A program made the position numbers and the translations under genes. A stretch of DNA of 64,000 nucleotides from Escherichia phage warpig. Under the pieces are notes generated by a model. That model was not told the DNA's origin. It was given only the letters and a program-made list of their open reading frames with translations, and did no database searches. The stretch lies in the sequence record MN850637.1; one strand, 5' to 3'. How positions within the stretch are numbered: position 1 is the first letter of the stretch; each line of letters starts with the position of its first letter. This document shows, one piece after another, positions 3,290 to 60,568 of the stretch.

Positions 3290-3817
3290 CCTTACCTGTG
3301 CCAGTTACAAGCGTCTCACTCTTCAAACCTAAATTCTTAGATGCCTGACCATACATCCAGTCAGTTATGGCTTTAACTTCTTGAGTCATACTTTCTGGGC
3401 ATTCCCAACTGTTTTCATCGTGGTATGCCAGCAAAAGCCTAGCACCGATTGCTGGTTTTCGTCCATTTAATTTTGTCAATCCTTCTTCACATGCTCTTCT
3501 ACAAGCAAGGTTAATTGCCTCGTTCTGAATCTGGCTTTCCGAACCCATGAGCAAATAATTCAATAACTTATGTGGAGATTTACACCACAACCATGCACCT
3601 GCTACCTTTACAAAACCCCCTTTAGAGATTGCAGCAGTCTTACCAAACACCTCTTCAAGTGCCTTTTTAGTTGCTTTGTAGTCAGCTTCCAAGTCATCTA
3701 GCAGCTTCTTAATTTTAGGCAAACGAATAAAGTAAGTCTGTTTAGTCAGCGCACCTTCCTGAGTAGTTGCAGCCTTAATCGTCTTAGCAAACTTCTCATC
3801 ACCTGCACCGAACAATA
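3261..3817 (-). CDS. DNA polymerase (family A, T7-like), exon 2
   Basis: Begins inside motif B (LFGAGDEK) and contains SPHK and YHDE (motif C) regions that align with my recollection of T7 DNA polymerase C-terminus. Confidence 0.85.
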
Positions 3818-52231: not shown

Positions 52232-53647
52232 ATGAGCGAATTATTTAAACATGCGCACCTTCATGCAGGTCGAACTGAAAATGGTGCTGTAAACCATACT
52301 TCATCAATGTCTGCTCTAGTAAACTTTTACAAAGCTGCTGGTTCAAGCCGTAGCAACGTAGAAATCTTACCAGACCTGTTCTACAAAGCTTTGCGTGAGG
52401 ATGTTGATGTTGCAGTTCGTATTTTGCTTCATATGCGAGATGTACGAGAAGGTATGGGTGAGCGTAAAGCCTTCAGAACTGTTTTGCTTCAAGCAATTGA
52501 AGACAAAGTTTTAGAGTCTACGCAGGTTCTTCGCATTATGGATAAGATTGCAGAACTTGGTCGTTTTGATGACTTCAAAATCTTCGTAGGTACTCGTTTC
52601 GAGACAGATGCCTTCAAACATTTAGAAGCAGCATTACTAGACCCTGCAACAGCAGGTTTGGCGGCTAAGTGGTTACCACGAGTCAAACCACGTCATAAGC
52701 AGTTTGTAAAACGTTTCTGCAAGTTTGCCAACTTGAGTGAGAAAGAGTACCGCACACTGTTGTCTGCACTATCTGATACAGTTGAGCAAAAAATCTCTGC
52801 TAATGAGTTTGGTAAGATTGACTACAGTAAGATTCCTTCACTTGCTGCTGCACGTTACCAAAAACTGTTTAACCGTAAAGATGGAGAGCGTTACAAAGCT
52901 TACATCGAGTCCTTATCAAAAGGTGAGACTAAGATTAACGCTGGTGCTGTTTACCCATACGATGTGATTAAATCTGTCAAGTATGGTAATGCAGATGTTG
53001 CTAATGAGCAGTGGAAAGCACTACCAAACTGGATGGCAGAAGGTGAAAACATCTTGTGTATGTCTGATGTATCAAGTTCAATGTCTTGGGTGAATTTTGG
53101 CTCCATTACTGCTCTGGATATTGGTGTATCACTTGCCTTGTATGTAGCAGAACGCAATACAGGTTGCTTTAAGAATGAGTTAATGGTTTATTCAACAAAC
53201 CCTCACTTCATCGAACTGAGTGGTGATTTACGAAACCGTCATCGTCAGGTGATGCGACACGTTGAATATGGCTCAACTAACTTACAAGCAGCTTTTGACC
53301 GCATTCTTGAAACAGGTAAAAGAAACAACTTGACTCAGAAAGATATGCCAAGTAAGCTTATCATCTTCTCCGATATGGAGTTCAATCAGGTTGATGGAGC
53401 TAACGGTCGTACAAACTTTGAAGCAATTCAGAGTAAGTACAAAAAAGCTGGATATGAGATGCCACAACTGGTATTCTGGTACTTAGCAAACCGTAATGGT
53501 ACTTGCGAAGTATCTGTTAAGGATAACGGTGTAGCAATGGTATCAGGGTTCTCTCCAGCCACTTTAAAAGCTCTGCTTGGTGGTGAGAAGTTTGACCCAA
53601 TCAGTGTAATGCTCAAAGCAGTAATGATTGACCGTTATATCTGGTAA
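52232..53647 (+). CDS. vWA-domain protein (possible TROVE/Ro60-like or DUF-type)
   Basis: 471 aa; MIDAS-like DVSSSMS and downstream vWA-like segment; N-terminal helical domain unassigned. Confidence 0.45.
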   Translation: MSELFKHAHLHAGRTENGAVNHTSSMSALVNFYKAAGSSRSNVEILPDLFYKALREDVDVAVRILLHMRDVREGMGERKAFRTVLLQAIEDKVLESTQVLRIMDKIAELGRFDDFKIFVGTRFETDAFKHLEAALLDPATAGLAAKWLPRVKPRHKQFVKRFCKFANLSEKEYRTLLSALSDTVEQKISANEFGKIDYSKIPSLAAARYQKLFNRKDGERYKAYIESLSKGETKINAGAVYPYDVIKSVKYGNADVANEQWKALPNWMAEGENILCMSDVSSSMSWVNFGSITALDIGVSLALYVAERNTGCFKNELMVYSTNPHFIELSGDLRNRHRQVMRHVEYGSTNLQAAFDRILETGKRNNLTQKDMPSKLIIFSDMEFNQVDGANGRTNFEAIQSKYKKAGYEMPQLVFWYLANRNGTCEVSVKDNGVAMVSGFSPATLKALLGGEKFDPISVMLKAVMIDRYIW

Positions 53648-53665
53648 AAAGTTTTAAAAAGGGTA

Positions 53666-53694
53666 TTGACAATGTGTTTAATACCCTTTAATAT
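53666..53694 (+). promoter_or_regulatory. sigma70-like promoter with overlapping palindrome
   Basis: TTGACA - 17 bp - TAATAT; inverted repeat GGGTATT...AATACCC spans the -35/spacer. Confidence 0.55.
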
Positions 53695-53756
53695 GTTCTA
53701 CATAGAAGCGAAATGAGAGCTTTTCTAAGATACTGAAAAATATTTTAAAAAAGTTC

Positions 53757-53786
53757 TTGACAACCACTAAAAAATAATGTTAAAGT
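53757..53786 (+). promoter_or_regulatory. sigma70-like promoter with overlapping palindrome
   Basis: TTGACA - 17/18 bp - TAAAGT; inverted repeat AACCACT...AGTGGTT in spacer; upstream of first tRNA. Confidence 0.45.
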
Positions 53787-53812
53787 GGTTACATAGAGTT
53801 TGAAAAGTTTAT

Positions 53813-53889
53813 CTCTGTTTAGCTCAGCTTGGTAGAGCGTTCCGTTTGGGGCGGTAAGGCCGGAGGTTCAAGTCCTCCAACAGAGACCA
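53813..53889 (+). tRNA. tRNA-Pro (anticodon TGG)
   Basis: Hand-folded: acceptor CTCTGTT/AACAGAG, D-arm GCTC...GAGC, loop TTTGGGG, T-arm GGAGG-TTCAAGT-CCTCC, CCA encoded. Confidence 0.7.
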
Positions 53890-53896
53890 AATTAAT

Positions 53897-53974
53897 GTTC
53901 CAGTAGACAAAATGGTAAAGTCACCACTCTTTCAAAGTGGATATTTGAGGGTTCAAATCCCTTCTGGAACGCCA
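53897..53974 (+). tRNA. tRNA-Glu (anticodon TTC)
   Basis: Acceptor GTTCCAG/CTGGAAC, anticodon stem CCACT/AGTGG, loop CTTTCAA, T-loop TTCAAAT, CCA encoded. Confidence 0.7.
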
Positions 53975-54064
53975 GTTTTGACAGAAGACCAATTACAGCA
54001 AACTTAATCTACTCATCTGACACGAAATCGGACAAAGAAGATATTTGGTCTGGTCATTAAGAAT

Positions 54065-54141
54065 TGCGGGTATAGAGAAAGGGCGTCTCACATGTCTCAT
54101 TAGCATGGTATCGGCAGGTTCGACTCCTGCACCCGCCTCCA
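54065..54141 (+). tRNA. tRNA-Met or Ile2 (anticodon CAT)
   Basis: T-arm GCAGG-TTCGACT-CCTGC, acceptor 3' ACCCGCC, anticodon loop CTCATTA; position 37 is T (atypical). Confidence 0.55.
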
Positions 54142-54182
54142 AATTTACAGAAGACCGTTTACAGCAAAACTTAAACAATCTA

Positions 54183-54255
54183 TTTCTCGGTAAAGAAAAG
54201 GCGAAGGTTCGATTCCTTCACTCGGCAGATGTCGAGTTGGTGTAATGGTAGCACT
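54183..54255 (+). ncRNA. tRNA-like locus with permuted half order (3' half then 5' half)
   Basis: Hairpin (54183-54198) + T-arm GAAGG-TTCGATT-CCTTC + acceptor 3' ACTCGGC-A, 3 nt (GAT), then acceptor 5' GTCGAGT + D-arm GTGT-AATGGTA-GCAC; anticodon arm unresolved. Confidence 0.35.
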
Positions 54256-54426
54256 TAAGATGGTAAACAACGGTCTGGTAATTATCTTTGTAGATAAGTT
54301 ATTAAGCTTACCTGTGAGTATGCGACCACAAAGGGTGAAGGGTAAATTCTAGATTTAAACCCAAAAAGGCACATCGCTACAGACCTTAAGCAAGTCTGGG
54401 TAGCTTATCTACAAAGATAATTTAAT

Positions 54427-54502
54427 GGAAGTGTAGCAGAATGGTGATGCGGCAGACTTTTAATCTGACAGGCGATGGGTTCGAATCCCTCCACTTCTAC
54501 CA
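54427..54502 (+). tRNA. tRNA-Lys (anticodon TTT)
   Basis: Acceptor GGAAGTG/CACTTCT, loop CTTTTAA, T-loop TTCGAAT, CCA encoded. Confidence 0.7.
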
Positions 54503-54506
54503 AAAT

Positions 54507-54583
54507 GGTTCAGTCGCAGATAAGGTAATGCAAGGGTCTCATAAGCCCTATGAATGTGGGTTCGATTCCCATCTGAACCTCCA
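54507..54583 (+). tRNA. tRNA-Met or Ile2 (anticodon CAT)
   Basis: Acceptor GGTTCAG/CTGAACC, anticodon stem AGGGT/GCCCT, loop CTCATAA, T-arm GTGGG-TTCGATT-CCCAT. Confidence 0.7.
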
Positions 54584-54585
54584 AT

Positions 54586-54660
54586 TGTGGGTTAGCATAA
54601 ATGGTAATGCAAACGGCTGATAACCGTTAGAAGAGGGTTCGATACCCTCACCTACAACCA
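54586..54660 (+). tRNA. tRNA-Ile (anticodon GAT)
   Basis: Acceptor TGTGGGT/ACCTACA, D-arm GCAT...ATGC, anticodon stem AACGG/CCGTT, loop CTGATAA, T-arm GAGGG-TTCGATA-CCCTC. Confidence 0.8.
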
Positions 54661-54675
54661 ATTTCAATAAAGTTG

Positions 54676-54704
54676 TTGACATTGAGATGTGACCACTTTA
54701 TAGT
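54676..54704 (+). promoter_or_regulatory. sigma70-like promoter inside tRNA cluster
   Basis: TTGACA - 17 bp - TATAGT. Confidence 0.55.
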
Positions 54705-54908
54705 AACCTTAGTTTTCGTTGCGTAGCGTCTATTTTGCAAATTTAAAATAAATGCAAACGACAATGTTTTTCTGGCAGTAGCTTGATAGGCTAAACACCA
54801 GTGAGGTCTTCCAATCCCTCATCAAAGAATTTGGCGTACTCGCCCACGGTATGATTAATAAGGTGGGCATCTTTAAGGGCTTTCTAAGAGAGTCTTTAAA
54901 GATAATTA

Positions 54909-54990
54909 CGGGGCGTATCTCATCTGTCTTCTAAACAGACGTTAACCGAGTAAGTGGAGTATGCGGGTTCGAGTCCTGCCGCCTCGACCA
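54909..54990 (+). tRNA. atypical tRNA-like gene (anticodon loop TCTAAAC, long extra arm, minimal D region)
   Basis: Acceptor CGGGGCG/CGCCTCG with A73-CCA, T-arm GCGGG-TTCGAGT-CCTGC, hairpin TGTCT-TCTAAAC-AGACG; only about 7 nt where a D-arm should be. Confidence 0.4.
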
Positions 54991-55004
54991 ATTTTGGAGA
55001 AATC

Positions 55005-55352
55005 ATGAAAACTTGTATTAGGTGCAAACTTAGCAAGGATGAAAATGATTTCTACATGAAAGATGGTAGGAGAACTCATTCATACTGTAAAAAGTGTGTT
55101 AATGAGCAAACCATAGAAAGACAAAGAGCACTTAAACTCTCAGCTATTGAGTACAAAGGTGGGGTTTGTCATGATTGTGGTAAGAAATATCATCCAGCAG
55201 TGTATGACTTCCATCATTTGAATCCTTCAGATAAAGATTTTAACATTGGTCATAGGAAAAGCCTTAAGTTCTCTCAAGAACTAAAAGATGAACTTGACAA
55301 ATGTGTTTTGCTATGTTCAAATTGCCATAGGGTAAGACATGCAAAGTATTAG
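55005..55352 (+). CDS. HNH endonuclease
   Basis: 116 aa from ATG with RBS GGAGAAATC; CxxC...YDFHHLNPSDKDFNIG...LLCSNCHR HNH motif; embedded in tRNA cluster. Confidence 0.7.
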   Translation: MKTCIRCKLSKDENDFYMKDGRRTHSYCKKCVNEQTIERQRALKLSAIEYKGGVCHDCGKKYHPAVYDFHHLNPSDKDFNIGHRKSLKFSQELKDELDKCVLLCSNCHRVRHAKY

Positions 55353-55489
55353 TTAGCAGATTACTTAGACGACCTAAGCGGGTCTTCCTGTAGGGAGGTG
55401 GTCTGTATCTCATGTTTTCCAGAACATGTAAATAATCTGAGAAGGGGCTTTACAGTGTTGAGATAATACGGTAAGCTTCGAATTATAGT

Positions 55490-55572
55490 GTGGGACGATG
55501 TTAAGACTCTAAGGCATGAGCAACGGCTTCCAACACCGTTTCAAAGGGGTTCAACTCCTCCGTCCCATGCCA
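55490..55572 (+). tRNA. tRNA, possibly Trp (anticodon CCA), atypical D region
   Basis: T-arm AGGGG-TTCAACT-CCTCC, acceptor GTGGGAC/GTCCCAT, G73-CCA; anticodon stem AACGG/CCGTT with TTCCAAC loop; about 6 extra nt in D region. Confidence 0.4.
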
Positions 55573-55585
55573 AAGTCTTATTAGG

Positions 55586-55673
55586 GGTAGGTAGCGGCTA
55601 ATGGTAGCCAAACAGTCTTGAAAACTGTTGCCACTGTAGAGATACGGTGAGGGTTCGACTCCTTTACTTACCG
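55586..55673 (+). tRNA. tRNA-Ser (anticodon TGA), type II
   Basis: Acceptor GGTAGGT/ACTTACC, anticodon stem ACAGT/ACTGT, loop CTTGAAA, long variable arm, T-loop TTCGACT. Confidence 0.7.
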
Positions 55674-55829
55674 CCTAATAAGATTTAAAGCCAAGCTTCA
55701 TTCGGATGTCGCTTTGGTATCCCTCGTGTATTGTCGTACACACTGATAAAACACCTAGTAGGTGTCACGGAGAAGAGATAATATCAAGCTCTCCAAAGGT
55801 TCTAGTCACCGGATTAAACAAGACTATGC

Positions 55830-55851
55830 AAAGACCTTTTTAGGTCTTTTT
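55830..55851 (+). terminator. rho-independent terminator
   Basis: AAAGACC-TTTTTA-GGTCTTT followed by TT. Confidence 0.5.
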
Positions 55852-55930
55852 AGAGGGCTTCTAAGGTTATTACAGCTTGTTGTGGAACCTTGTTGCTTAG
55901 GTTCTTAGAAGTTCTCTAAAAAGATTTAAT

Positions 55931-56008
55931 GGGAGATTGACGGTAATTGGTAAACCTACCATCCTTAGAAGTTGGTGTTTGAGGGTTCGAATCCCTTGTC
56001 TCCTACCA
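55931..56008 (+). tRNA. tRNA with Leu anticodon TAG, short variable arm
   Basis: Acceptor GGGAGAT/GTCTCCT, A73-CCA, D-loop AATTGGTAAA (Leu-like), loop CTTAGAA, 5-nt variable loop, T-loop TTCGAAT. Confidence 0.5.
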
Positions 56009-56015
56009 AATTAAT

Positions 56016-56091
56016 GCAGGTGTAGCAAAATGGTTATGCGGCTGACTCTTAATCAGTAAGACGATGGGTTCAATTCCCTCCACCTGTACCA
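56016..56091 (+). tRNA. tRNA-Lys (anticodon CTT)
   Basis: Acceptor GCAGGTG/CACCTGT, anticodon stem GCTGA/TCAGT, loop CTCTTAA, T-loop TTCAATT. Confidence 0.7.
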
Positions 56092-56097
56092 GACATT

Positions 56098-56173
56098 GGG
56101 GTCATAGTTTATATGGTTAAAATTCGAGTTTTGCAAACTTGGGAACTGAGTTCAATTCTCAGTGACTCCACCA
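56098..56173 (+). tRNA. tRNA-Ala (anticodon TGC)
   Basis: Acceptor GGGGTCA/TGACTCC with G3-T70 wobble (Ala identity pair), loop TTTGCAA, T-arm CTGAG-TTCAATT-CTCAG. Confidence 0.75.
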
Positions 56174-56179
56174 ATTAGT

Positions 56180-56254
56180 GCATCCATAGTTTAAACGGGA
56201 AAATTACAGTCTTCCAAACTGAGGTTGAGGGTTCGATTCCCTCTGGATGCTCCA
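56180..56254 (+). tRNA. tRNA-Gly (anticodon TCC)
   Basis: Acceptor GCATCCA/TGGATGC, loop CTTCCAA, T-loop TTCGATT. Confidence 0.75.
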
Positions 56255-56261
56255 AATTAAT

Positions 56262-56337
56262 GCTCCTATCGTATAATAGGCTATTACGGTTGCCTTGTAA
56301 GCAACTTATCAGGGTTCGAATCCTTGTGGGAGCACCA
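56262..56337 (+). tRNA. tRNA-Thr (anticodon TGT)
   Basis: Acceptor GCTCCTA/TGGGAGC, anticodon stem GTTGC/GCAAC, loop CTTGTAA, T-loop TTCGAAT. Confidence 0.8.
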
Positions 56338-56443
56338 ATTCAGAGGTCAAGTGAAAGACCGCTGGTGTCAACTGAAGACCGTAACAAATTCCACGGAGTT
56401 GAGTTAGCGGCACAACTTCAGACCTCTTTCACACTCGCTTAGT

Positions 56444-56518
56444 TTATATGGTAAAACACCACCCTTACAAGATGAAGAAAAAGGTTCAAGTCCTTTAGTG
56501 AGTACCATGTTCCAGTAT
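56444..56518 (+). tRNA. tRNA, possibly Val (anticodon TAC), weak anticodon stem
   Basis: Acceptor ACTCGCT/AGTGAGT, D-arm GTTT...AAAC, T-arm AAAGG-TTCAAGT-CCTTT, CCA; anticodon arm has two mismatches. Confidence 0.4.
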
Positions 56519-56519
56519 C

Positions 56520-56597
56520 CCAATTGGCAGAGGATGCAAGCTCAAACCTTGTATTAGTGACGGTTCGAATCCGTCTTGGAACACCAATTTTAAGAGG
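56520..56597 (+). tRNA. tRNA with Leu anticodon CAA, short variable arm
   Basis: Acceptor GTTCCAG/TTGGAAC, A73-CCA, D-arm TCC-CAATTGGCAGA-GGA (Leu-like D-loop), anticodon stem GCAAG/CTTGT, loop CTCAAAC, 6-nt variable loop. Confidence 0.5.
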
Positions 56598-56605
56598 CTA
56601 TTTAG

Positions 56606-57163
56606 ATGAGATATTTGAAGTATGCTTCATGGATTTTCCTAGCTTTACTAGAGCCATTTGCAGCAACCCTAGCAGTCATCTTAGCACCTTTCGTAGTTCC
56701 ATTCTACAGTGAGAAGAAAGGACACCTACCTTTTGGATTCAGATGGATGGAGACCTATGACAACCCAATTGATGGTGATGAAGGTCACGTTAAAAGATGG
56801 GCTAAGATTAGAAAGATTGGTAAGCTGGGTGTCTACATGCAGAGAGTTGGATGGCTCTGGAGAAACAAAGCTTATAACTTCTCTTACCATGTATTAGGAA
56901 GAGATGTAAAAGATGTTACTAAGTGGAAAGGCAATATCAACGTAAGTTCTGACCCTGAAGATAATCAGACTGGTTATCTCCTAATGTGGAATAGCAATGC
57001 TTGGGGATTATTCGCTTTTATCCCATCAATTAAAGTCTTTGGTAAACAGTTTTACTGGAGAATTTATATTGGATGGAAACTAAAAAGCGTTGTCCCAGAA
57101 GAAAGAGCATTCTCAAGGGAAAGAGTTATGTTGGCATTCTTTATTCATCCACTGAGAAAGTAA
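56606..57163 (+). CDS. membrane protein inside tRNA cluster
   Basis: 185-aa ORF with N-terminal hydrophobic helices. Confidence 0.45.
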   Translation: MRYLKYASWIFLALLEPFAATLAVILAPFVVPFYSEKKGHLPFGFRWMETYDNPIDGDEGHVKRWAKIRKIGKLGVYMQRVGWLWRNKAYNFSYHVLGRDVKDVTKWKGNINVSSDPEDNQTGYLLMWNSNAWGLFAFIPSIKVFGKQFYWRIYIGWKLKSVVPEERAFSRERVMLAFFIHPLRK

Positions 57164-57171
57164 AGATTTAA

Positions 57172-57247
57172 AGGGGATTAGTTTACAAGGTTAAAACCTC
57201 GGTCTTTGAAATCGAAGAAGTTGGTTCAATTCCAACATCCCCCGCCA
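57172..57247 (+). tRNA. tRNA-Gln (anticodon TTG)
   Basis: D-arm GTTT...AAAC, anticodon stem TCGGT/ATCGA, loop CTTTGAA, T-arm GTTGG-TTCAATT-CCAAC, G73-CCA. Confidence 0.7.
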
Positions 57248-57249
57248 AT

Positions 57250-57328
57250 GCTCCATTACTCCAATTGGCAGAGAGGCCAGACTTAAAATCTGTGTTATGT
57301 ATCGGTTCGAATCCGATATGGAGTACCA
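57250..57328 (+). tRNA. tRNA with Leu anticodon TAA, short variable arm
   Basis: Acceptor GCTCCAT/ATGGAGT, A73-CCA, D-arm CTC-CAATTGGCA-GAG (same as 56520 tRNA), loop CTTAAAA, 7-nt variable loop, T-arm ATCGG-TTCGAAT-CCGAT. Confidence 0.5.
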
Positions 57329-57333
57329 AATTT

Positions 57334-57409
57334 AGCGGTATAGCATAACTGGCAATGCAACAGTCTCTGAAACTGTCCTATTAAGGTTCAAATCCTTATG
57401 CCGCTGCCA
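57334..57409 (+). tRNA. tRNA-Gln (anticodon CTG)
   Basis: Acceptor AGCGGTA/TGCCGCT, D-arm GCAT...ATGC, anticodon stem ACAGT/ACTGT, loop CTCTGAA, G73-CCA. Confidence 0.75.
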
Positions 57410-57440
57410 CTTCTAAGGGTTCTTACGAGAGTCCTTAAAT

Positions 57441-57516
57441 GTGGCCTTATCATAAATGGTAATGACCCATGCTGTGAACATGGTCTATACGGGTTCAAAT
57501 CCCGTAGGTCACCCCA
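57441..57516 (+). tRNA. tRNA-His (anticodon GTG)
   Basis: Acceptor GTGGCCT/AGGTCAC, anticodon stem CCATG/CATGG, loop CTGTGAA, T-arm ACGGG-TTCAAAT-CCCGT. Confidence 0.75.
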
Positions 57517-57521
57517 ATTTA

Positions 57522-57597
57522 TAGTCCAAGTAGCTTATATGGTGAAGCGCGTGTCTGAAAAACATGAGAAGAGGGTTCAAATCCCACTGGACTACCA
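57522..57597 (+). tRNA. tRNA-Phe (anticodon GAA)
   Basis: Acceptor TAGTCCA/TGGACTA, anticodon stem CGTGT/ACATG, loop CTGAAAA, T-loop TTCAAAT; 3' end register ambiguous. Confidence 0.6.
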
Positions 57598-57613
57598 ATT
57601 TCAAAGGTGCTTA

Positions 57614-58348
57614 ATGAAAGAGATGACAGAACAAGGTAAGGAGATTTTTAATCTCTTAAAAACCGGTAAAGGGTTTTCTAACCCACTTATTACTGGTGCA
57701 GCAGTTCTCGGTGGAACCGTAGCTGCCTCTACATCACTTGTAAGCTCTATTAGCTCTGTAACAGACCCTACAATGAAGGAGAAGCTTGTTGCTGCTGGAC
57801 TTACAACAGTCCTTCTAAACAGCTTTACAACAAGCCTGACAAGCACTACAGCAACCACTAAGACCCTAACAGACTATGGTCAAAAGTCTATTGATGAGTT
57901 TTCATCACGTATGCAGGTAGCAAAGGGATATTCCAATGTTATGGGTGCAGCAGGAGAACAAGTTGGTTGTACACCATTCAGTGGTATTATGGGTGTTGCT
58001 ACAGAGTATGGTCAAAAAGCTATTGACATGATTAACAGCACACTAGACAGTGTTAACGGTGTGTTAAGTGACTTACAAGACGCTATTGATAAGGGTCTTG
58101 ATACTGTTTCTGATTTAGCTAATCAGGCTGTTAGTAAGATTAATGAAGGTATCTCAAAGATTACAGCTTATGCAGATGAAGTTGTGCAGATGATTGAAGA
58201 AGAAGCTGCCCTTATTGCAGAGTACCTTAAAACGAATATCAATGGGTTCTTAGCAGGTATCTTACCAGACTGGTTTGATGATGCTTGTAAAACTGGTGTA
58301 ATCGACACTATTGCAACACCAGAAATGAAGAGCGCATTACAGAAATAA
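57614..58348 (+). CDS. hypothetical Ser/Thr-rich protein inside tRNA cluster
   Basis: 244 aa from internal ATG (track ORF at 57398 reads through three tRNAs). Confidence 0.45.
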   Translation: MKEMTEQGKEIFNLLKTGKGFSNPLITGAAVLGGTVAASTSLVSSISSVTDPTMKEKLVAAGLTTVLLNSFTTSLTSTTATTKTLTDYGQKSIDEFSSRMQVAKGYSNVMGAAGEQVGCTPFSGIMGVATEYGQKAIDMINSTLDSVNGVLSDLQDAIDKGLDTVSDLANQAVSKINEGISKITAYADEVVQMIEEEAALIAEYLKTNINGFLAGILPDWFDDACKTGVIDTIATPEMKSALQK

Positions 58349-58349
58349 T

Positions 58350-58442
58350 GGAAGATTAACCCTAAAAGGTAAGGGAGCAGTTTGCTAAACTGCCAGTAGC
58401 TGAGAAATCGGTGTACCAGTTCAAGTCTGGTATCTTCCTCCA
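58350..58442 (+). tRNA. tRNA-Ser (anticodon GCT), type II
   Basis: Acceptor GGAAGAT/ATCTTCC, anticodon stem GCAGT/ACTGC, loop TTGCTAA, long variable arm, T-arm ACCAG-TTCAAGT-CTGGT, CCA. Confidence 0.75.
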
Positions 58443-58446
58443 ATTT

Positions 58447-58522
58447 GAATCCGTGACAGAAATGGCTATGTGCCTGTCTGCAAAACAGGTTTATAAGGGT
58501 TCAAGTCCCTTCGGATTCTCCA
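58447..58522 (+). tRNA. tRNA-Cys (anticodon GCA)
   Basis: Acceptor GAATCCG/CGGATTC, anticodon stem CCTGT/ACAGG, loop CTGCAAA, T-arm AAGGG-TTCAAGT-CCCTT, CCA. Confidence 0.75.
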
Positions 58523-58558
58523 AGTTATTTTACTCTCTCTCAATTAAAATAATAATAA

Positions 58559-58619
58559 TGCCCTGCTATAAGTATTCTTCCTTTCGCTACCGAAGAGTAT
58601 TTTTAGACAGGGCTTTTTT
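58559..58619 (+). terminator. compound rho-independent terminator
   Basis: Outer stem GCCCTG...CAGGGC enclosing inner hairpin, followed by TTTTTT; ends tRNA operon. Confidence 0.5.
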
Positions 58620-58684
58620 ACAGAGTTATACTTTATAGGAAGACTTATACAGTATGTCTCTGACGTACATTGTGGTTTCTCCTT

Positions 58685-58708
58685 GACGGTCTCTGTGCCG
58701 TCTTTTTT
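58685..58708 (+). terminator. rho-independent terminator
   Basis: GACGG-loop-CCGTC followed by TTTTTT. Confidence 0.55.
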
Positions 58709-58744
58709 AAGGAGAAACATGGTTAATTATTTGGAGAAAACATA

Positions 58745-58945
58745 ATGAGTGAGACCGTTTATAAAGAACTTTATGAAGCTAATAAAAAGCTAGAATTTAT
58801 GCAGAACACTATCATGGCAATTGCAGATAGATTATCTGTAGCAACAGGTATTGATATTAAAGAAGCATCTATAGATGCACTTCTTGATGCTGTTGATGCA
58901 AAGTTCGAAGTTAAGAAAGAAGAGACTGCTACAGACTCTGAATAA
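58745..58945 (+). CDS. hypothetical protein
   Basis: 66-aa ORF with RBS GGAGAAAAC, directly upstream of large terminase. Confidence 0.45.
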   Translation: MSETVYKELYEANKKLEFMQNTIMAIADRLSVATGIDIKEASIDALLDAVDAKFEVKKEETATDSE

Positions 58946-58966
58946 TTCTATTTGCGGAGGTGCTTA

Positions 58967-60568
58967 ATGGACTTAAATGCTGTTAAGCAGAAGCGAGTGG
59001 AAGATGTTAGGAAAGTCCTAGCTGGAGAGTTGGGGCTTTCTGATGAAGTAAAAGAAATTATCAAATCATTCGGTAAAGACCCCTCTAAATTCCTTCCAAC
59101 TCAAATTCTGACTTTATTAAGATACACACCAGACCAAGTTCGCCTTATCTTTAAATTGATGACTGATAAGAACTATGTAGCCCCTCAGCCGGGTTCTCAA
59201 GAGGTCTTTTTAAACACTAATGCTGACTTAGTTCTCTATGGTGGTGCTGCTGGTGCTGGTAAGACTGCTGCATTGTTAATGGACTCTTTAAGATTTATTG
59301 AAGACCCTAACTACAATGCTGTATATTTCCGTCGAAATACAACACAGTTACAAGGTGGTTTATGGCCTGCTGCAAAGAAACTATTTGGTAAGTTTGGTGG
59401 GATTCCTCACGAGCAGAAAATGACTATTACATTCCCTTCTGGGGCGACTATCAAGTTTACCTATCTAGAACTTGAAAAGCACGCTGAAGGTCATCAGGGT
59501 ATTGAATACTCAGCTATTTACTTTGACGAAGGTACACACTTCTCTGCTTCACAGATTTCATACCTACAAACACGTCTTCGTTCTGGTGCTGAAGGTGATT
59601 CATACATGAAGATTTCCATGAACCCAGACAGAGACCACTTTATTTATGATTGGGTAGAACCATTCTTAGATGAAGAAGGTTATCCAGACCCTGAAAAGTG
59701 TGGTCGTATTCGTTGGTATGTAATGAATGATGGTGTGATGGTTTCTGATTGGGAGAGAGACAAGATTCTTGAAATGTTCCCTCTGGAGATTCCTCAAACA
59801 TACACCTTCATCTCTGGTACGATTGATGATAACCCAATTCTTGACTTCTTAGAACCTAAGTACCGTGGTAAGTTGGAAAACAACACCCCTGTAAACGTTG
59901 CAAGACTTCGTTTCGGTAACTGGAAGGCTCGTGCAGAAGGTTCAAACTATTGGCAAAGGCAATGGTGTGAAATTGTTGATTCACTCCCAGAGGATGTATT
60001 TGATGTTAGAGCATGGGACTTAGCAGCAACTTTACCATCTGAGGTTAACCCTAATCCAGACTGGACAGCGGGTGTTAAGATGGGTAAATCTAAAAAAGAC
60101 GGTTGCTATTATATCATTGATGTAGTAAGATTTAGAGATAGACCCTCTGGAGTCGAAACACAAATTAATTTGACTGCTGAAAGTGACGGTAAGCGAACTG
60201 GTATTTTTATCCCTCAAGACCCAGGCGCTGCTGGTAAATCCTACGCAACATCCCTCATCAGGAAACTTGCCGAGAAAGGCTATCGTGCAAGAGCTAAACC
60301 AACAAATAAAGATAAAGTTACCCGATTTGCGGGGTTTTCTGCTGCTTCTGAAGCTGGACTTGTAAAAGTTTTGAGAGGTAGTTGGAACGAAGCTTATTTC
60401 CAAGAGCTTGAAGGCTTTTGTGGTGATGGCAAAACTAAAGATGACCAAGTGGATGCTACCAGTGATGCTTTCAACAGTCTTAACGAAGTTAAATTATTCA
60501 AGCCACCATCAATGGGTGCTCACACAGACTTAGTGAGAGGAAACCCATATGAGGGGCTTAGACGTTGA
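58967..60568 (+). CDS. terminase large subunit
   Basis: Walker A LYGGAAGAGKTAAL, Walker B-like AIYFDEGTH, C-terminal nuclease-like region; about 533 aa. Confidence 0.8.
   Translation: MDLNAVKQKRVEDVRKVLAGELGLSDEVKEIIKSFGKDPSKFLPTQILTLLRYTPDQVRLIFKLMTDKNYVAPQPGSQEVFLNTNADLVLYGGAAGAGKTAALLMDSLRFIEDPNYNAVYFRRNTTQLQGGLWPAAKKLFGKFGGIPHEQKMTITFPSGATIKFTYLELEKHAEGHQGIEYSAIYFDEGTHFSASQISYLQTRLRSGAEGDSYMKISMNPDRDHFIYDWVEPFLDEEGYPDPEKCGRIRWYVMNDGVMVSDWERDKILEMFPLEIPQTYTFISGTIDDNPILDFLEPKYRGKLENNTPVNVARLRFGNWKARAEGSNYWQRQWCEIVDSLPEDVFDVRAWDLAATLPSEVNPNPDWTAGVKMGKSKKDGCYYIIDVVRFRDRPSGVETQINLTAESDGKRTGIFIPQDPGAAGKSYATSLIRKLAEKGYRARAKPTNKDKVTRFAGFSAASEAGLVKVLRGSWNEAYFQELEGFCGDGKTKDDQVDATSDAFNSLNEVKLFKPPSMGAHTDLVRGNPYEGLRR

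What the first reader, a model, noticed from the sequence alone, without database searches (positions are those of the whole stretch)
54183..54255. tRNA-like locus whose halves are in permuted order
A tRNA 3' portion (anticodon-arm-like hairpin, T-arm GAAGG-TTCGATT-CCTTC, acceptor 3' strand ACTCGGC, discriminator A) is followed after only 3 nt (GAT) by a tRNA 5' portion (acceptor 5' strand GTCGAGT, which pairs with the upstream ACTCGGC, and a D-arm GTGT-AATGGTA-GCAC). No matching 3' half lies downstream and no matching 5' half lies upstream. This is either a circularly permuted tRNA gene (to my knowledge not reported in phages), a tRNA-derived structural RNA, or the scar of a duplication: the 28-nt spacer ACAGAAGACCNNTTACAGCAAACTTAA recurs at 53977 and 54146.
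Basis: seen in the sequence. Interest (0 to 1): 0.6.

Follow-up and report, generated by a model that had tools for sequence, protein, structure and literature searches.

The report
Phage tRNA-mimic Y RNA beside Ro60-like gene
The "scrambled tRNA" is real, but it is best read as a phage version of a bacterial Y RNA: a small RNA folded like a circularly permuted tRNA, encoded just after a Ro60-like RNA-binding protein gene that in a sister phage is needed to overcome a bacterial defence system.

Summary
At 54183-54255 a hairpin, a T arm and an acceptor 3' strand are followed after 3-4 nt by the matching acceptor 5' strand and a D arm.

It is not a deletion scar. The 285-nt block 54142-54426 is 95-99% identical in about 210 Felixounavirus genomes. 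In other Ounavirinae genera the acceptor stem differs by fully compensatory changes.

The permuted cloverleaf is closed by a stem formed from its own 5' and 3' flanks (54152-54159 with 54269-54276). This is the V-T-acceptor-D topology of bacterial YrlA Y RNAs.

The gene 495 nt upstream (52232-53647, DUF2828+DUF7788) models as a Ro60 ring plus vWA domain. It is the same gene as gp130 of phage Bas63, reported as Ro60-like and anti-Ppl.

A covariance model of the RNA finds full-length, same-strand relatives beside distant DUF2828 genes in 20 of 75 other phage loci, and beside a canonical Ro-like gene.

The repeated "28-nt spacer" is the 5' strand of a second, short Y-like RNA (53976-54060).

The RNA fails Rfam's YrlA model and lacks the YrlA GNCGAA motif, so I call it a new variant of a known kind. 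Protein binding is inferred, not shown.

A tmRNA-like tag RNA lies nearby (54705-54908) and is unexplained.

The parts
52232..53647 (+). Gene for a 471-aa Ro60-like protein (helical ring plus vWA domain with MIDAS motif), the proposed protein partner
   Evidence: Pfam DUF2828+DUF7788. PHROG 850 'RNA-binding protein'. AF2 model pLDDT 84, pTM 0.84. Foldseek top 12 PDB hits are all Ro60/TROVE, full length, E 3e-8 to 5e-6, TM 0.50-0.64. The only PDB profile hits are Ro60, at the DVSxSM motif. Same position and size as bas63_0130.
53757..53786 (+). Sigma-70-like promoter (TTGACA-18-TAAAGT with TG) that would drive the tRNA/Y-RNA operon
   Evidence: Consensus scan, 10 of 12 matches. No + strand terminator-like site before the next promoter at 54676. 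A consensus match only.
53976..54060 (+). Short Y-like RNA (module A). It has the same closing stem and motifs (AGAAGACCAAUUACAGCAA ... UUGGUCUGGUCAUUAA) but no tRNA-like domain
Evidence: R1 34.4 bits, E 8e-5; R2 39.2 bits. Sequence read.
54065..54141 (+). tRNA-Met. Its 3' processing would define the 5' end of the Y-like RNA precursor
   Evidence: ARAGORN.
54142..54285 (+). YrlA-like tRNA-mimic RNA (module B), whole element
   Evidence: R1 157 bits, R2 130 bits. MFE fold. Covariation.
54152..54159 (+). 5' strand of closing stem H1 (AGACCGUU). Pairs with 54269-54276 (AACGGUCU)
   Evidence: MFE. In A6, 7 of its 8 pairs show double changes and 91% of cells are paired.
54160..54167 (+). Conserved single-stranded motif UACAGCAA directly after H1, the candidate protein-recognition motif
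   Evidence: Invariant in Ounavirinae. U(A/U)CAGCAA is kept in distant hits.
54178..54181 (+). AUCU, the 5'-side strand of the short helix that takes the place of the anticodon stem. Pairs with AGAU 54258-54261. The alternative register is CUUA 54170-54173 with UAAG 54256-54259
   Evidence: The manual structure is 79% paired in A6. The MFE chose the alternative register. The register is unresolved.
54183..54198 (+). 5 bp, 6-nt loop
   Evidence: Variable or absent in relatives.
54203..54219 (+). T arm GAAGG-UUCGAUU-CCUUC
   Evidence: Rfam tRNA partial match to model positions 43-63. 100% paired in A6, 4 of 5 pairs with double changes.
54220..54237 (+). Acceptor-like stem closed by loop AGAU. 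7 bp: ACUCGGC with GUCGAGU
   Evidence: Compensatory variants ACACGUU/GGCGUGU and ACCCUUC/GAAGGGU in relatives. 7 of 7 pairs show double changes in A6.
54240..54254 (+). D arm GUGU-AAUGGUA-GCAC with the G18 G19 equivalents, preceded by U8-like U 54238
   Evidence: 99% paired in A6.
54269..54282 (+). 3' strand of H1 plus conserved tail: AACGGUCU-GGUAAU
   Evidence: Invariant in Ounavirinae. ..CUG(R)UAA.. is kept in distant hits.
54280..54422 (+). Second structured domain: a ~29-bp stem (54280-54308 with 54393-54422) enclosing ~85 nt. Either part of the same processed RNA or a separate RNA; role unknown
   Evidence: MFE. RNAalifold finds 37 pairs, 6 of them with compensatory changes between Felixounavirus and Mooglevirus/Suspvirus.
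54427..54502 (+). tRNA-Lys. RNase P cleavage at its 5' end would define the 3' end of the precursor
   Evidence: ARAGORN.

Best explanation
The locus encodes a YrlA-like Y RNA: a non-decoding tRNA mimic with the connectivity of a circularly permuted tRNA. It is the likely RNA partner of the Ro60-like protein encoded 495 nt upstream.

Proposed mechanism, step by step:
1. The RNA is transcribed as part of the tRNA operon from the promoter at 53757.
2. It is released when tRNA-Met (upstream) and tRNA-Lys (downstream) are processed.
3. Its T arm, closed 7-bp acceptor stem and D arm fold into a tRNA-like L shape.
4. Its 5' and 3' flanks pair (AGACCGUU with AACGGUCU). This presents the conserved UACAGCAA and GGUCUGGUAAU motifs as the docking site for the Ro60-like ring.
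5. The shorter sibling RNA at 53976-54060 carries the same docking module without the tRNA domain.
6. The RNP then uses the tRNA-like domain as a handle or decoy for a tRNA-recognising factor. By analogy with Ro60-Y RNA-PNPase complexes and with the Bas63 genetics, this helps the phage against host defence.

Because the acceptor stem has 7 bp, RNase P may cut between 54230 and 54231, as happens in M. smegmatis YrlA.

Shown here: the anatomy, conservation, covariation, gene linkage and the Ro60-like fold of the neighbouring protein. Inferred: transcription and processing, protein binding, and the effector.
For: - Topology. The element has the V-T-acceptor-D order inside a helix made by its 5' and 3' ends. 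[quoted passage not shown]
- Conservation. The block is 95-99% identical in about 210 phage records. It is present regardless of the neighbouring deletion.
- Covariation. Acceptor stems differ compensatorily among genera. Across 30 sequences, 91% of cells are paired and 30 of 33 pairs show double changes.
- Neighbouring protein. It has a Ro60-like fold. It is the counterpart of Bas63 gp130, which a preprint reports as Ro60-like and required against the Ppl defence. The authors guessed that some tRNA genes are Y RNAs (PMC11482910).
- Linkage in distant phages. Models R1 and R2 find full-length hits in 20 of 75 loci whose DUF2828 proteins are only 38-47% identical. All 33 hits lie on the protein's strand, and several directly abut the gene.
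- Cross-detection. In a Streptomyces phage with an annotated canonical Ro-like protein, R2 hits (53 and 45 bits) the same two sites where Rfam's YrlA model gives its sub-threshold matches.
Against: - No expression, processing or binding data were available.
- Rfam RF02553 (YrlA) gives no match in the window even at E<=10.
- The YrlA GNCGAAN0-1G motif is absent from the 5' strand. Its only occurrence, GGCGAAGG at 54200, overlaps the T stem and is not conserved.
- The protein is not TROVE by Pfam.
- The Levitt pair would be A15-C48, which is not canonical.
- The register of the helix replacing the anticodon stem is ambiguous.
- 55 of 75 distant DUF2828 loci gave no hit with the current model.
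Confidence: 0.8

Rival explanations
1. It is a genuine circularly permuted tRNA gene. The transcript would be circularised or ligated and re-cut to give a functional decoding tRNA, for example tRNA-Thr(GGU).
For: The halves are complementary and in 3'-5' order. In some relatives the hairpin loop is CUGGUAA, which fits an anticodon loop with GGU. The linker AGGC looks like a class I variable loop. tRNAscan-SE called a 129-nt 'tRNA-Thr-GGT' here in phage ASO1B.
Against: The loop is 6 nt in this window, and the loop sequence varies among relatives (CGGUAA, CCGGUAA, CUAUAAA, AYUUUCA). The hairpin is absent in several distant family members. The flanks form a conserved closed helix that is shared with sibling RNAs lacking any tRNA part. 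ARAGORN calls no tRNA here in the window or in five relatives. Bacteria lack the splicing endonuclease pathway used for permuted tRNAs in Cyanidioschyzon (established knowledge). No phage permuted tRNA was found in the paper library.
Confidence: 0.03
2. It is a non-functional scar: remnants of two tandem tRNA copies left by deletions or recombination in the tRNA array.
For: The array is recombinogenic. This genome lacks a ~500-bp block (tRNA-Asn, Tyr, Asp and two Y-like modules) that most relatives carry, and the junction lies in the repeated 28-mer. The element plausibly originated from tandem tRNAs, because N-CCA follows the acceptor 3' strand in Moogle/HP1 and in two L083 copies.
Against: The locus is unchanged in genomes with and without the deletion. 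It is conserved across genera with compensatory changes that keep every helix. It recurs next to homologous proteins in unrelated phages.
Confidence: 0.03
3. It is the tRNA-like domain of a split (permuted) tmRNA that works together with the tmRNA-like tag frame 470 nt downstream (54754-54789).
For: ARAGORN calls a permuted tmRNA that starts exactly at this element in Mooglevirus genomes, tag ANDNVFLAVA. The tag frame is conserved. One distant phage has a true permuted tmRNA 3.4 kb from its DUF2828 gene. The topology (T arm, acceptor 3' strand, acceptor 5' strand) matches a permuted tmRNA gene.
Against: There is no G3.U70 in any variant. No CCA is encoded in this window. Three tRNA genes and a promoter separate the two parts. 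The element has a full D arm and closes on itself. The Rfam tmRNA_permuted model does not hit it; its weak 30-bit hit uses tRNA-Ile instead. Predicted RNA-RNA pairing is no better than for shuffled sequences. The tag element occurs in many phage families not known to carry this RNA. Most R2-positive loci examined have no tmRNA call.
Confidence: 0.04
4. It is a structured tRNA-like RNA that acts on its own, without the Ro60-like protein. Examples would be a decoy for tRNA-targeting defence nucleases or modification enzymes, or a processing element for the tRNA operon.
For: It sits inside a tRNA operon. The tRNA-like core is intact. Binding to the neighbouring protein is not demonstrated.
Against: Strand-consistent linkage to DUF2828 genes across distant phages, sometimes directly abutting the gene. 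The closing stem and motifs are shared by sibling RNAs that have no tRNA part, which points to a common docking function.
Confidence: 0.1

Closest known systems
YrlA (Y RNA-like A; Rfam RF02553) of Salmonella Typhimurium, Mycobacterium smegmatis and mycobacteriophages (Chen et al. 2014, PMC4201824; Wang et al. 2018, bioRxiv 10.1101/312249)
   Same: Both have a tRNA-like domain in the order variable region, T arm, loop-closed acceptor stem, D arm, enclosed by a helix of the RNA's 5' and 3' ends. Both are encoded within a few kb of a Ro60-type protein and on its strand. Both are accompanied by a shorter sibling RNA (YrlB-like). The 7-bp acceptor stem matches M. smegmatis YrlA, which is an RNase P substrate. 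My model R2 also detects the YrlA-type sites next to a canonical phage Ro-like gene.
   Different: There is no RF02553 match and no GNCGAAN0-1G motif in the 5' strand. The conserved motifs are instead AGA-stem-U(A/U)CAGCAA and stem-CUG(R)UAA. The partner protein belongs to Pfam DUF2828/DUF7788 rather than TROVE. The RNA is embedded in a phage tRNA operon, with 2-4 modules per genome. It is followed by a further ~145-nt hairpin domain.
Yrl1/Yrl2 with phiRo60 of Thermus phage phiLo (PMC12135203; PDB 9KOP, 9L5Y)
   Same: A phage-encoded Ro60 homologue with two Y-like RNAs encoded beside it. phiRo60 is among the best structural matches to the window's protein.
   Different: The phiLo RNAs are described as stem-bulge-stem RNAs with a CGAA motif, with no tRNA-like domain reported. 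They lie upstream of the gene.
Circularly permuted tRNA genes of Cyanidioschyzon merolae (Soma et al. 2007; from my own knowledge)
   Same: The 3' half is encoded upstream of the 5' half, with complementary acceptor strands separated by a short linker.
   Different: Those genes give mature decoding tRNAs through a circular intermediate made by the eukaryotic/archaeal splicing machinery. Here there is no conserved anticodon loop, and the ends are sealed in a conserved helix.
Two-piece (permuted) tmRNA (Rfam RF04321)
   Same: Permuted order of T arm, acceptor 3' strand and acceptor 5' strand. ARAGORN confuses the two in Mooglevirus genomes.
   Different: No G3.U70, no tag frame in the same RNA, a complete D arm, and no model match.

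Membership tests
YrlA-type Y RNA | Encoded within about 4 kb of a Ro60 orthologue and on the same strand | tested here: met
   The RNA starts 495 nt after the stop of the Ro60-like gene, on the same strand. The same linkage holds in 20 distant loci, with all hits on the gene's strand. Caveat: the protein is Ro60-like by predicted fold, not by Pfam TROVE.
YrlA-type Y RNA | tRNA-like domain ordered V, T arm, closed acceptor stem, D arm, inside a stem formed by the RNA's 5' and 3' ends | tested here: met
   Sequence and MFE fold. Covariation supports all six helices.
YrlA-type Y RNA | Conserved tRNA core nucleotides for D-loop/T-loop tertiary contacts, and the Levitt pair | tested here: inconclusive
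   The equivalents of U8, A14, G18 G19, A21 and the UUCGAUU T loop are present and invariant. The Levitt positions would be A15-C48 in the window and A15-A48 in relatives such as VSe11, neither of which is canonical.
YrlA-type Y RNA | GNCGAAN0-1G motif in the 5' strand of the Ro60-binding module | tested here: not met
   A regex scan of 53960-54430 finds only GGCGAAGG at 54200, which overlaps the T stem. It is not conserved in relatives. The conserved 5' motif is UACAGCAA.
YrlA-type Y RNA | Match to Rfam RF02553 at gathering score (69 bits) | tested here: not met
   No RF02553 match at E<=10. As a control, the model is in the library. It reaches only 30.8 and 27.4 bits next to a canonical phage Ro-like gene, where R2 scores 45 and 53 bits.
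YrlA-type Y RNA | Bound by Ro60/Rsr in vivo; carries tRNA modifications (pseudouridine, dihydrouridine) | not testable with these tools
   Needs immunoprecipitation and modification mapping.
Ro60/TROVE protein (the neighbouring gene) | Ring of helical repeats followed by a vWA domain with a MIDAS motif | tested here: met
   AF2 pLDDT 84. Full-length Foldseek matches to Ro60 structures. D279, S281, S283, T349 and D381 are invariant in 35 homologues.
Ro60/TROVE protein (the neighbouring gene) | Sequence membership in Pfam TROVE | tested here: not met
   Pfam gives only DUF2828 and DUF7788. A tblastn search with a Xenopus Ro60 fragment finds Ro-like genes in actinophages but none in enterobacterial phages.
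Circularly permuted tRNA gene | 3' half upstream of 5' half, with complementary acceptor strands | tested here: met
Circularly permuted tRNA gene | Complete anticodon arm with a 7-nt loop and a conserved anticodon, so that a decoding tRNA results | tested here: not met
   The loop is 6 nt in the window. Loop sequence and presence vary among relatives.
Circularly permuted tRNA gene | Bulge-helix-bulge processing motif at the precursor ends, plus a splicing endonuclease/ligase pathway | not tested
   No formal BHB search was run. The flanks form an 8-bp helix with an internal loop. The enzyme pathway is not known in enterobacteria (established knowledge).
Two-piece tmRNA tRNA-like domain | G3.U70 alanine identity pair, encoded or added CCA, and a tag frame in the adjoining coding piece | tested here: not met
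   The pairs at positions 1-3 are G-C, U.G, C-G in the window, G.U, G.U, C-G in Sf15 and G-C, A-U, A-U in Moogle. There is no tag frame in 54256-54426. RF04321 does not hit the element.

The most novel reading that the evidence does not exclude
RNase P cuts the 7-bp acceptor stem between 54230 and 54231, and the 3' end is trimmed and CCA-tailed, as documented for M. smegmatis YrlA. This would turn the element into a two-piece, potentially chargeable tRNA mimic held on a Ro60-like ring. The RNP would then either bait tRNA-targeting host defences or supply the missing tRNA-like domain for the tmRNA-like tag RNA that lies 470 nt downstream and lacks such a domain. In the second case the result would be a split, phage-run trans-translation-like system.
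Probability: 0.06. Interest if true: 0.85.

Novelty: new variant of a known kind. Interest (0 to 1): 0.55.

Why it matters
Ro60-Y RNA particles are well studied in animals and in a few bacteria, but what the tRNA-like domain of bacterial Y RNAs binds is still unknown.

This finding locates the RNA partner that a 2024 preprint only guessed at for Bas63 gp130, a Ro60-like phage protein needed to overcome the Ppl defence system. Bas63 is a tractable E. coli phage, so deleting or mutating the RNA and the protein side by side is straightforward.

It also shows that a large protein family with no assigned function (DUF2828/DUF7788; 2547 database proteins scored E<=0.001, with phage-named sources among the best hits) comes with its own class of tRNA-mimic RNAs. 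Current Rfam models and genome annotation miss these RNAs, or mis-call them as hypothetical ORFs, tRNA-Thr or tmRNA.

Tried and rejected
- Rfam scans at permissive thresholds over 53000-59000 and 53960-54430 gave no family for the element.
- I first suspected the locus was created by the ~500-bp deletion relative to most relatives. Alignment showed the junction lies upstream, in the repeated 28-mer, and that the locus itself is intact in both genome forms.
- Protein-coding readings were rejected. Small minus-strand ORFs are annotated over the element in VSe11 and Bas63. However, close relatives differ by 1-nt indels inside them, and the substitution pattern is helix-preserving.
- A direct phmmer search of the protein against PDB sequences found nothing relevant. 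Only the profile search and the structure search revealed Ro60.
- RNA-RNA duplex prediction between the tag RNA and the element was indistinguishable from shuffles.
- A search for a complement to the tag RNA's 5' end (CTAAGG) gave nothing meaningful.
- Literature searches for DUF2828, for Felixounavirus with tRNA-like or tmRNA, and for permuted tRNA in phages found no prior description of this RNA.

Full report
**Context.** The window is a FelixO1-like phage (Felixounavirus). The 1-kb region around the finding is 98-99% identical to many Salmonella and Escherichia Felixounavirus genomes. ARAGORN finds 21 tRNA genes between 53813 and 58522, all on the + strand, but none between tRNA-Met (54065-54141) and tRNA-Lys (54427-54502).

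Reading the sequence gives, in order:
- a 5-bp hairpin with a 6-nt loop (54183-54198);
- the linker AGGC;
- a textbook T arm (54203-54219);
- ACTCGGC, then A, then GAT;
- GTCGAGT, which pairs with ACTCGGC over 7 positions (54220-54237);
- TG, then a D arm with the GG dinucleotide (54240-54254).

Rfam recognises only the T arm. The repeated 28-mer is present, starting at about 53981 and 54147.

**It is not a local accident.** Most relatives carry an extra ~500 bp (tRNA-Asn, Tyr and Asp) between tRNA-Met and this locus. Alignment shows the deletion junction lies in the repeated motif CAAATTTACAGAAGACCGTTTACAGCAA. The permuted locus itself is intact and nearly identical in both genome forms. The block 54142-54426 matches 251 phage records, and about 210 of them are at least 95% identical.

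**Other genera keep the structure.** In Mooglevirus and Suspvirus the block is 71-85% identical, and the acceptor stem is rebuilt with different sequences:

| Source | Acceptor 3' strand / 5' strand |
|---|---|
| Window | ACUCGGC / GUCGAGU |
| Sf15, EcSzw_1, ESh21 | ACACGUU / GGCGUGU |
| Moogle, HP1 | ACCCUUC / GAAGGGU |

In Moogle and HP1 the 3' strand is followed by G-CCA. On the 7-sequence alignment this helix is 100% paired, and 3 of its pairs change on both sides.

**The fold.** The 285-nt block folds 5 standard deviations better than shuffles. The permuted cloverleaf is enclosed by an 8-bp helix made from its own flanks: AGACCGUU (54152-54159) with AACGGUCU (54269-54276). A short inner helix stands where a tRNA would have its anticodon stem. 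Its register is ambiguous: either AUCU/AGAU or CUUA/UAAG.

So there is no anticodon loop, and the acceptor end is a closed loop. The order is variable-region hairpin, T arm, acceptor stem-loop, D arm. This is the published architecture of bacterial YrlA Y RNAs (PMC4201824). [quoted passage not shown]

**The neighbouring gene.** YrlA RNAs lie next to Ro60 genes on the same strand, so I examined the ORF that ends 495 nt upstream (52232-53647, 471 aa).
- Pfam gives only DUF2828 and DUF7788. PHROGs calls it 'RNA-binding protein'.
- An AlphaFold2 model built on 35 homologues (pLDDT 84, pTM 0.84) was searched against the PDB. The 12 best matches are all Ro60/TROVE proteins: Xenopus and human Ro60, Deinococcus Rsr and Thermus phage phiLo Ro60. 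They are aligned over the full length, with E 3e-8 to 5e-6 and TM 0.50-0.64.
- A profile search of PDB sequences returns only Ro60, at the DVSxSM MIDAS motif, with weak E-values. The MIDAS residues are invariant in the family.
- The gene is the counterpart of bas63_0130 in phage Bas63/JohannRWettstein. The PhageMaP preprint reports that gp130 resembles Ro60 and is required to counter the Ppl defence system. [quoted passage not shown]

**Is the protein-RNA linkage general?** I fetched 80 viral loci that encode relatives of the protein; 75 of them are only 38-47% identical to it.
- A covariance model built from seven Ounavirinae sequences (R1) found full-length matches in many distant loci.
- These matches share the closing stem, a U(A/U)CAGCAA motif right after it, GGUUCGAnnCC T arms, canonical D arms, 6-7-bp acceptor hairpins of unrelated sequence, and a CUG(R)UAA tail.
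- A second model that included them (R2) gives E<0.01 hits in 20 of the 75 distant loci.
- All 33 hits are on the protein's strand. Several abut the gene directly: L019, L026 and L030 just upstream, L068 just downstream.
- On the 30-sequence alignment, 91% of cells pair and 30 of 33 pairs show changes on both sides. The covariation score is 0.463, against 0.12 for shuffled and at most 0.096 for slid controls. The alignment is fitted to the model, so these figures lean towards it.
- Three of the tRNA-like members encode N-CCA after the acceptor 3' strand. This fits an origin from tandem CCA-encoding tRNA genes, or ongoing tRNA-like processing.

**Sibling RNAs.** The same models hit 53976-54060 in the window (34-39 bits). 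This RNA has the closing stem and both motifs but no tRNA domain, like YrlB beside YrlA. Relatives that keep the Asn/Tyr/Asp block have further such modules.

**Membership versus mechanism.** Rfam does hold a YrlA model (RF02553). It gives nothing in the window even at E<=10. The YrlA GNCGAAN0-1G motif is absent from the 5' strand.

As a control I took a Streptomyces phage with an annotated canonical Ro-like protein. There RF02553 reaches only 30.8 and 27.4 bits, below its threshold of 69. My model R2 hits the same two sites at 45 and 53 bits.

So the element works like a YrlA and shares its architecture with bona fide Ro-linked RNAs. By the family's sequence criteria, however, it is a distinct branch, paired with a distinct protein family.

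**Rivals.**
- A decoding permuted tRNA is unlikely. The hairpin loop is 6 nt here, is not conserved, and is dispensable in some relatives.
- The tRNAscan 'tRNA-Thr-GGT' of 129 nt in phage ASO1B and the ARAGORN 'permuted tmRNA' calls in Moogle and HP1 are mis-readings of this element.
- The tmRNA reading fails on G3.U70, CCA, distance and model score.
- The small annotated ORFs over the element are broken by 1-nt indels among close relatives.

**Expression context.** A promoter-like site at 53757 precedes tRNA-Pro, and another at 54676 follows tRNA-Ile. No + strand terminator-like site lies between them. The element is therefore probably co-transcribed with the tRNAs and released by their processing. 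This is inference.

**What remains open.**
- The ~145-nt hairpin domain at 54280-54422 is also conserved, with compensatory changes. Its role is unknown.
- Binding of the RNAs to the Ro60-like protein has not been tested.
- RNase P cleavage of the 7-bp acceptor stem has not been tested.
- The effector recruited by the tRNA-like domain is unknown.

**Side observation of possibly greater novelty.** After tRNA-Ile and its own promoter lies a 200-nt conserved RNA (about 54705-54908).
- It contains AUAAAU followed by GCA AAC GAC AAU GUU UUU CUG GCA GUA GCU UGA UAG, which encodes ANDNVFLAVA**. The stop codons sit in a hairpin loop, as in tmRNA.
- The element occurs, unannotated in the hits examined, in 611 phage records from several unrelated families.
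- The 10-codon frame has no start codon and is conserved through synonymous changes: ANDAQFLAVA, ANEEMYLAVA, ANDDVVLMAA and ANDNTFLAVA.
- I could not find an alanyl tRNA-like domain for it.

Noticed in passing
window 54705-54908 (tag frame 54754-54783, stops 54784-54789; promoter 54676-54704): A conserved RNA that resembles the mRNA-like domain of tmRNA. AUAAAU is followed by a 10-codon frame with no start codon, encoding ANDNVFLAVA**. The stops lie in a hairpin loop, and covarying hairpins and a pseudoknot-like GGCG/CGCC-CCCAC/GUGGG region follow. No acceptor strand or T arm of its own was found. Rfam tmRNA models score below threshold (30 and 16 bits). The element occurs in 611 phage records from several families (Ounavirinae, Ackermannviridae, Schitoviridae, Klebsiella and Shigella siphoviruses), with no RNA annotation over it in the hits listed. 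The tag frame is kept through synonymous changes. How it could be used is unexplained.
   Followed up: partly
window 54909-54990: The tRNA after the tag RNA is an ordinary tRNA-Arg(UCU) in relatives. In this window it is replaced by an atypical version: acceptor CGGGGCG/CGCCUCG with G3.U70, A73 and CCA, almost no D arm, and about 20 extra nt in the variable region. Rfam tRNA scores it 33.4 bits; ARAGORN does not call it. It is followed directly by an HNH-type ORF.
   Followed up: partly
window 55005-55352: A small ORF with a weak HNH endonuclease match (E 0.007) sits immediately after the atypical tRNA-Arg-like gene. A different HNH homing endonuclease sits between tRNA-Tyr and tRNA-Asp in phage SLAM_phiST56. 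Homing endonucleases therefore appear to remodel this tRNA array.
   Followed up: no
window 54141-54147, compared with L001 943-1440: This genome, like VSe11, VSe102, SPT-1, SBA-1781 and PMBT20, lacks a ~500-bp block that most Felixounaviruses carry. The block holds tRNA-Asn, tRNA-Tyr, tRNA-Asp and two further short Y-like modules. The junction lies in the 28-nt motif shared by the modules, which suggests recombination between them.
   Followed up: yes
window 54280-54422: A long hairpin domain directly after the tRNA mimic: a ~29-bp stem enclosing ~85 nt that includes the invariant motif GAUUCUAGAUU. It is conserved with compensatory changes across Ounavirinae genera. There is no Rfam match and the function is unknown.
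   Followed up: partly
window 55490-55572: Another tRNA-like sequence that neither ARAGORN nor Rfam calls. It has acceptor GUGGGAC/GUCCCAU followed by G-CCA, a GGGG-UUCAACU-CCUC T arm, an oversized D region and an anticodon-arm-like hairpin with a ~9-nt loop. Seen by eye only.
   Followed up: no
L037 293-616 (IMG/VR contig 3300002220_000481): A distant phage encodes a bona fide permuted (two-piece) tmRNA (Rfam 71.7 bits; ARAGORN tag ANTNFALAA) 3.4 kb upstream of its DUF2828 gene. It also has a YrlA-like RNA at 3420-3547.
   Followed up: partly
L092 (Streptomyces phage Jada) 1925-2047 and 3111-3250: A canonical Ro-like protein gene in an actinophage also sits inside a tRNA array, with two YrlA-type RNAs nearby. 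These RNAs score below Rfam's gathering threshold (30.8 and 27.4 bits against 69), so routine annotation would miss them.
   Followed up: partly
L010 259-387 (phage ASO1B); L008 1974-2722 and L009 1485-2233: Public annotation and standard tools mis-call the element. tRNAscan-SE calls it a 129-nt tRNA-Thr(GGT). ARAGORN calls it the start of a 749-nt permuted tmRNA. In Bas63 and VSe11 it is covered by hypothetical minus-strand ORFs.
   Followed up: yes
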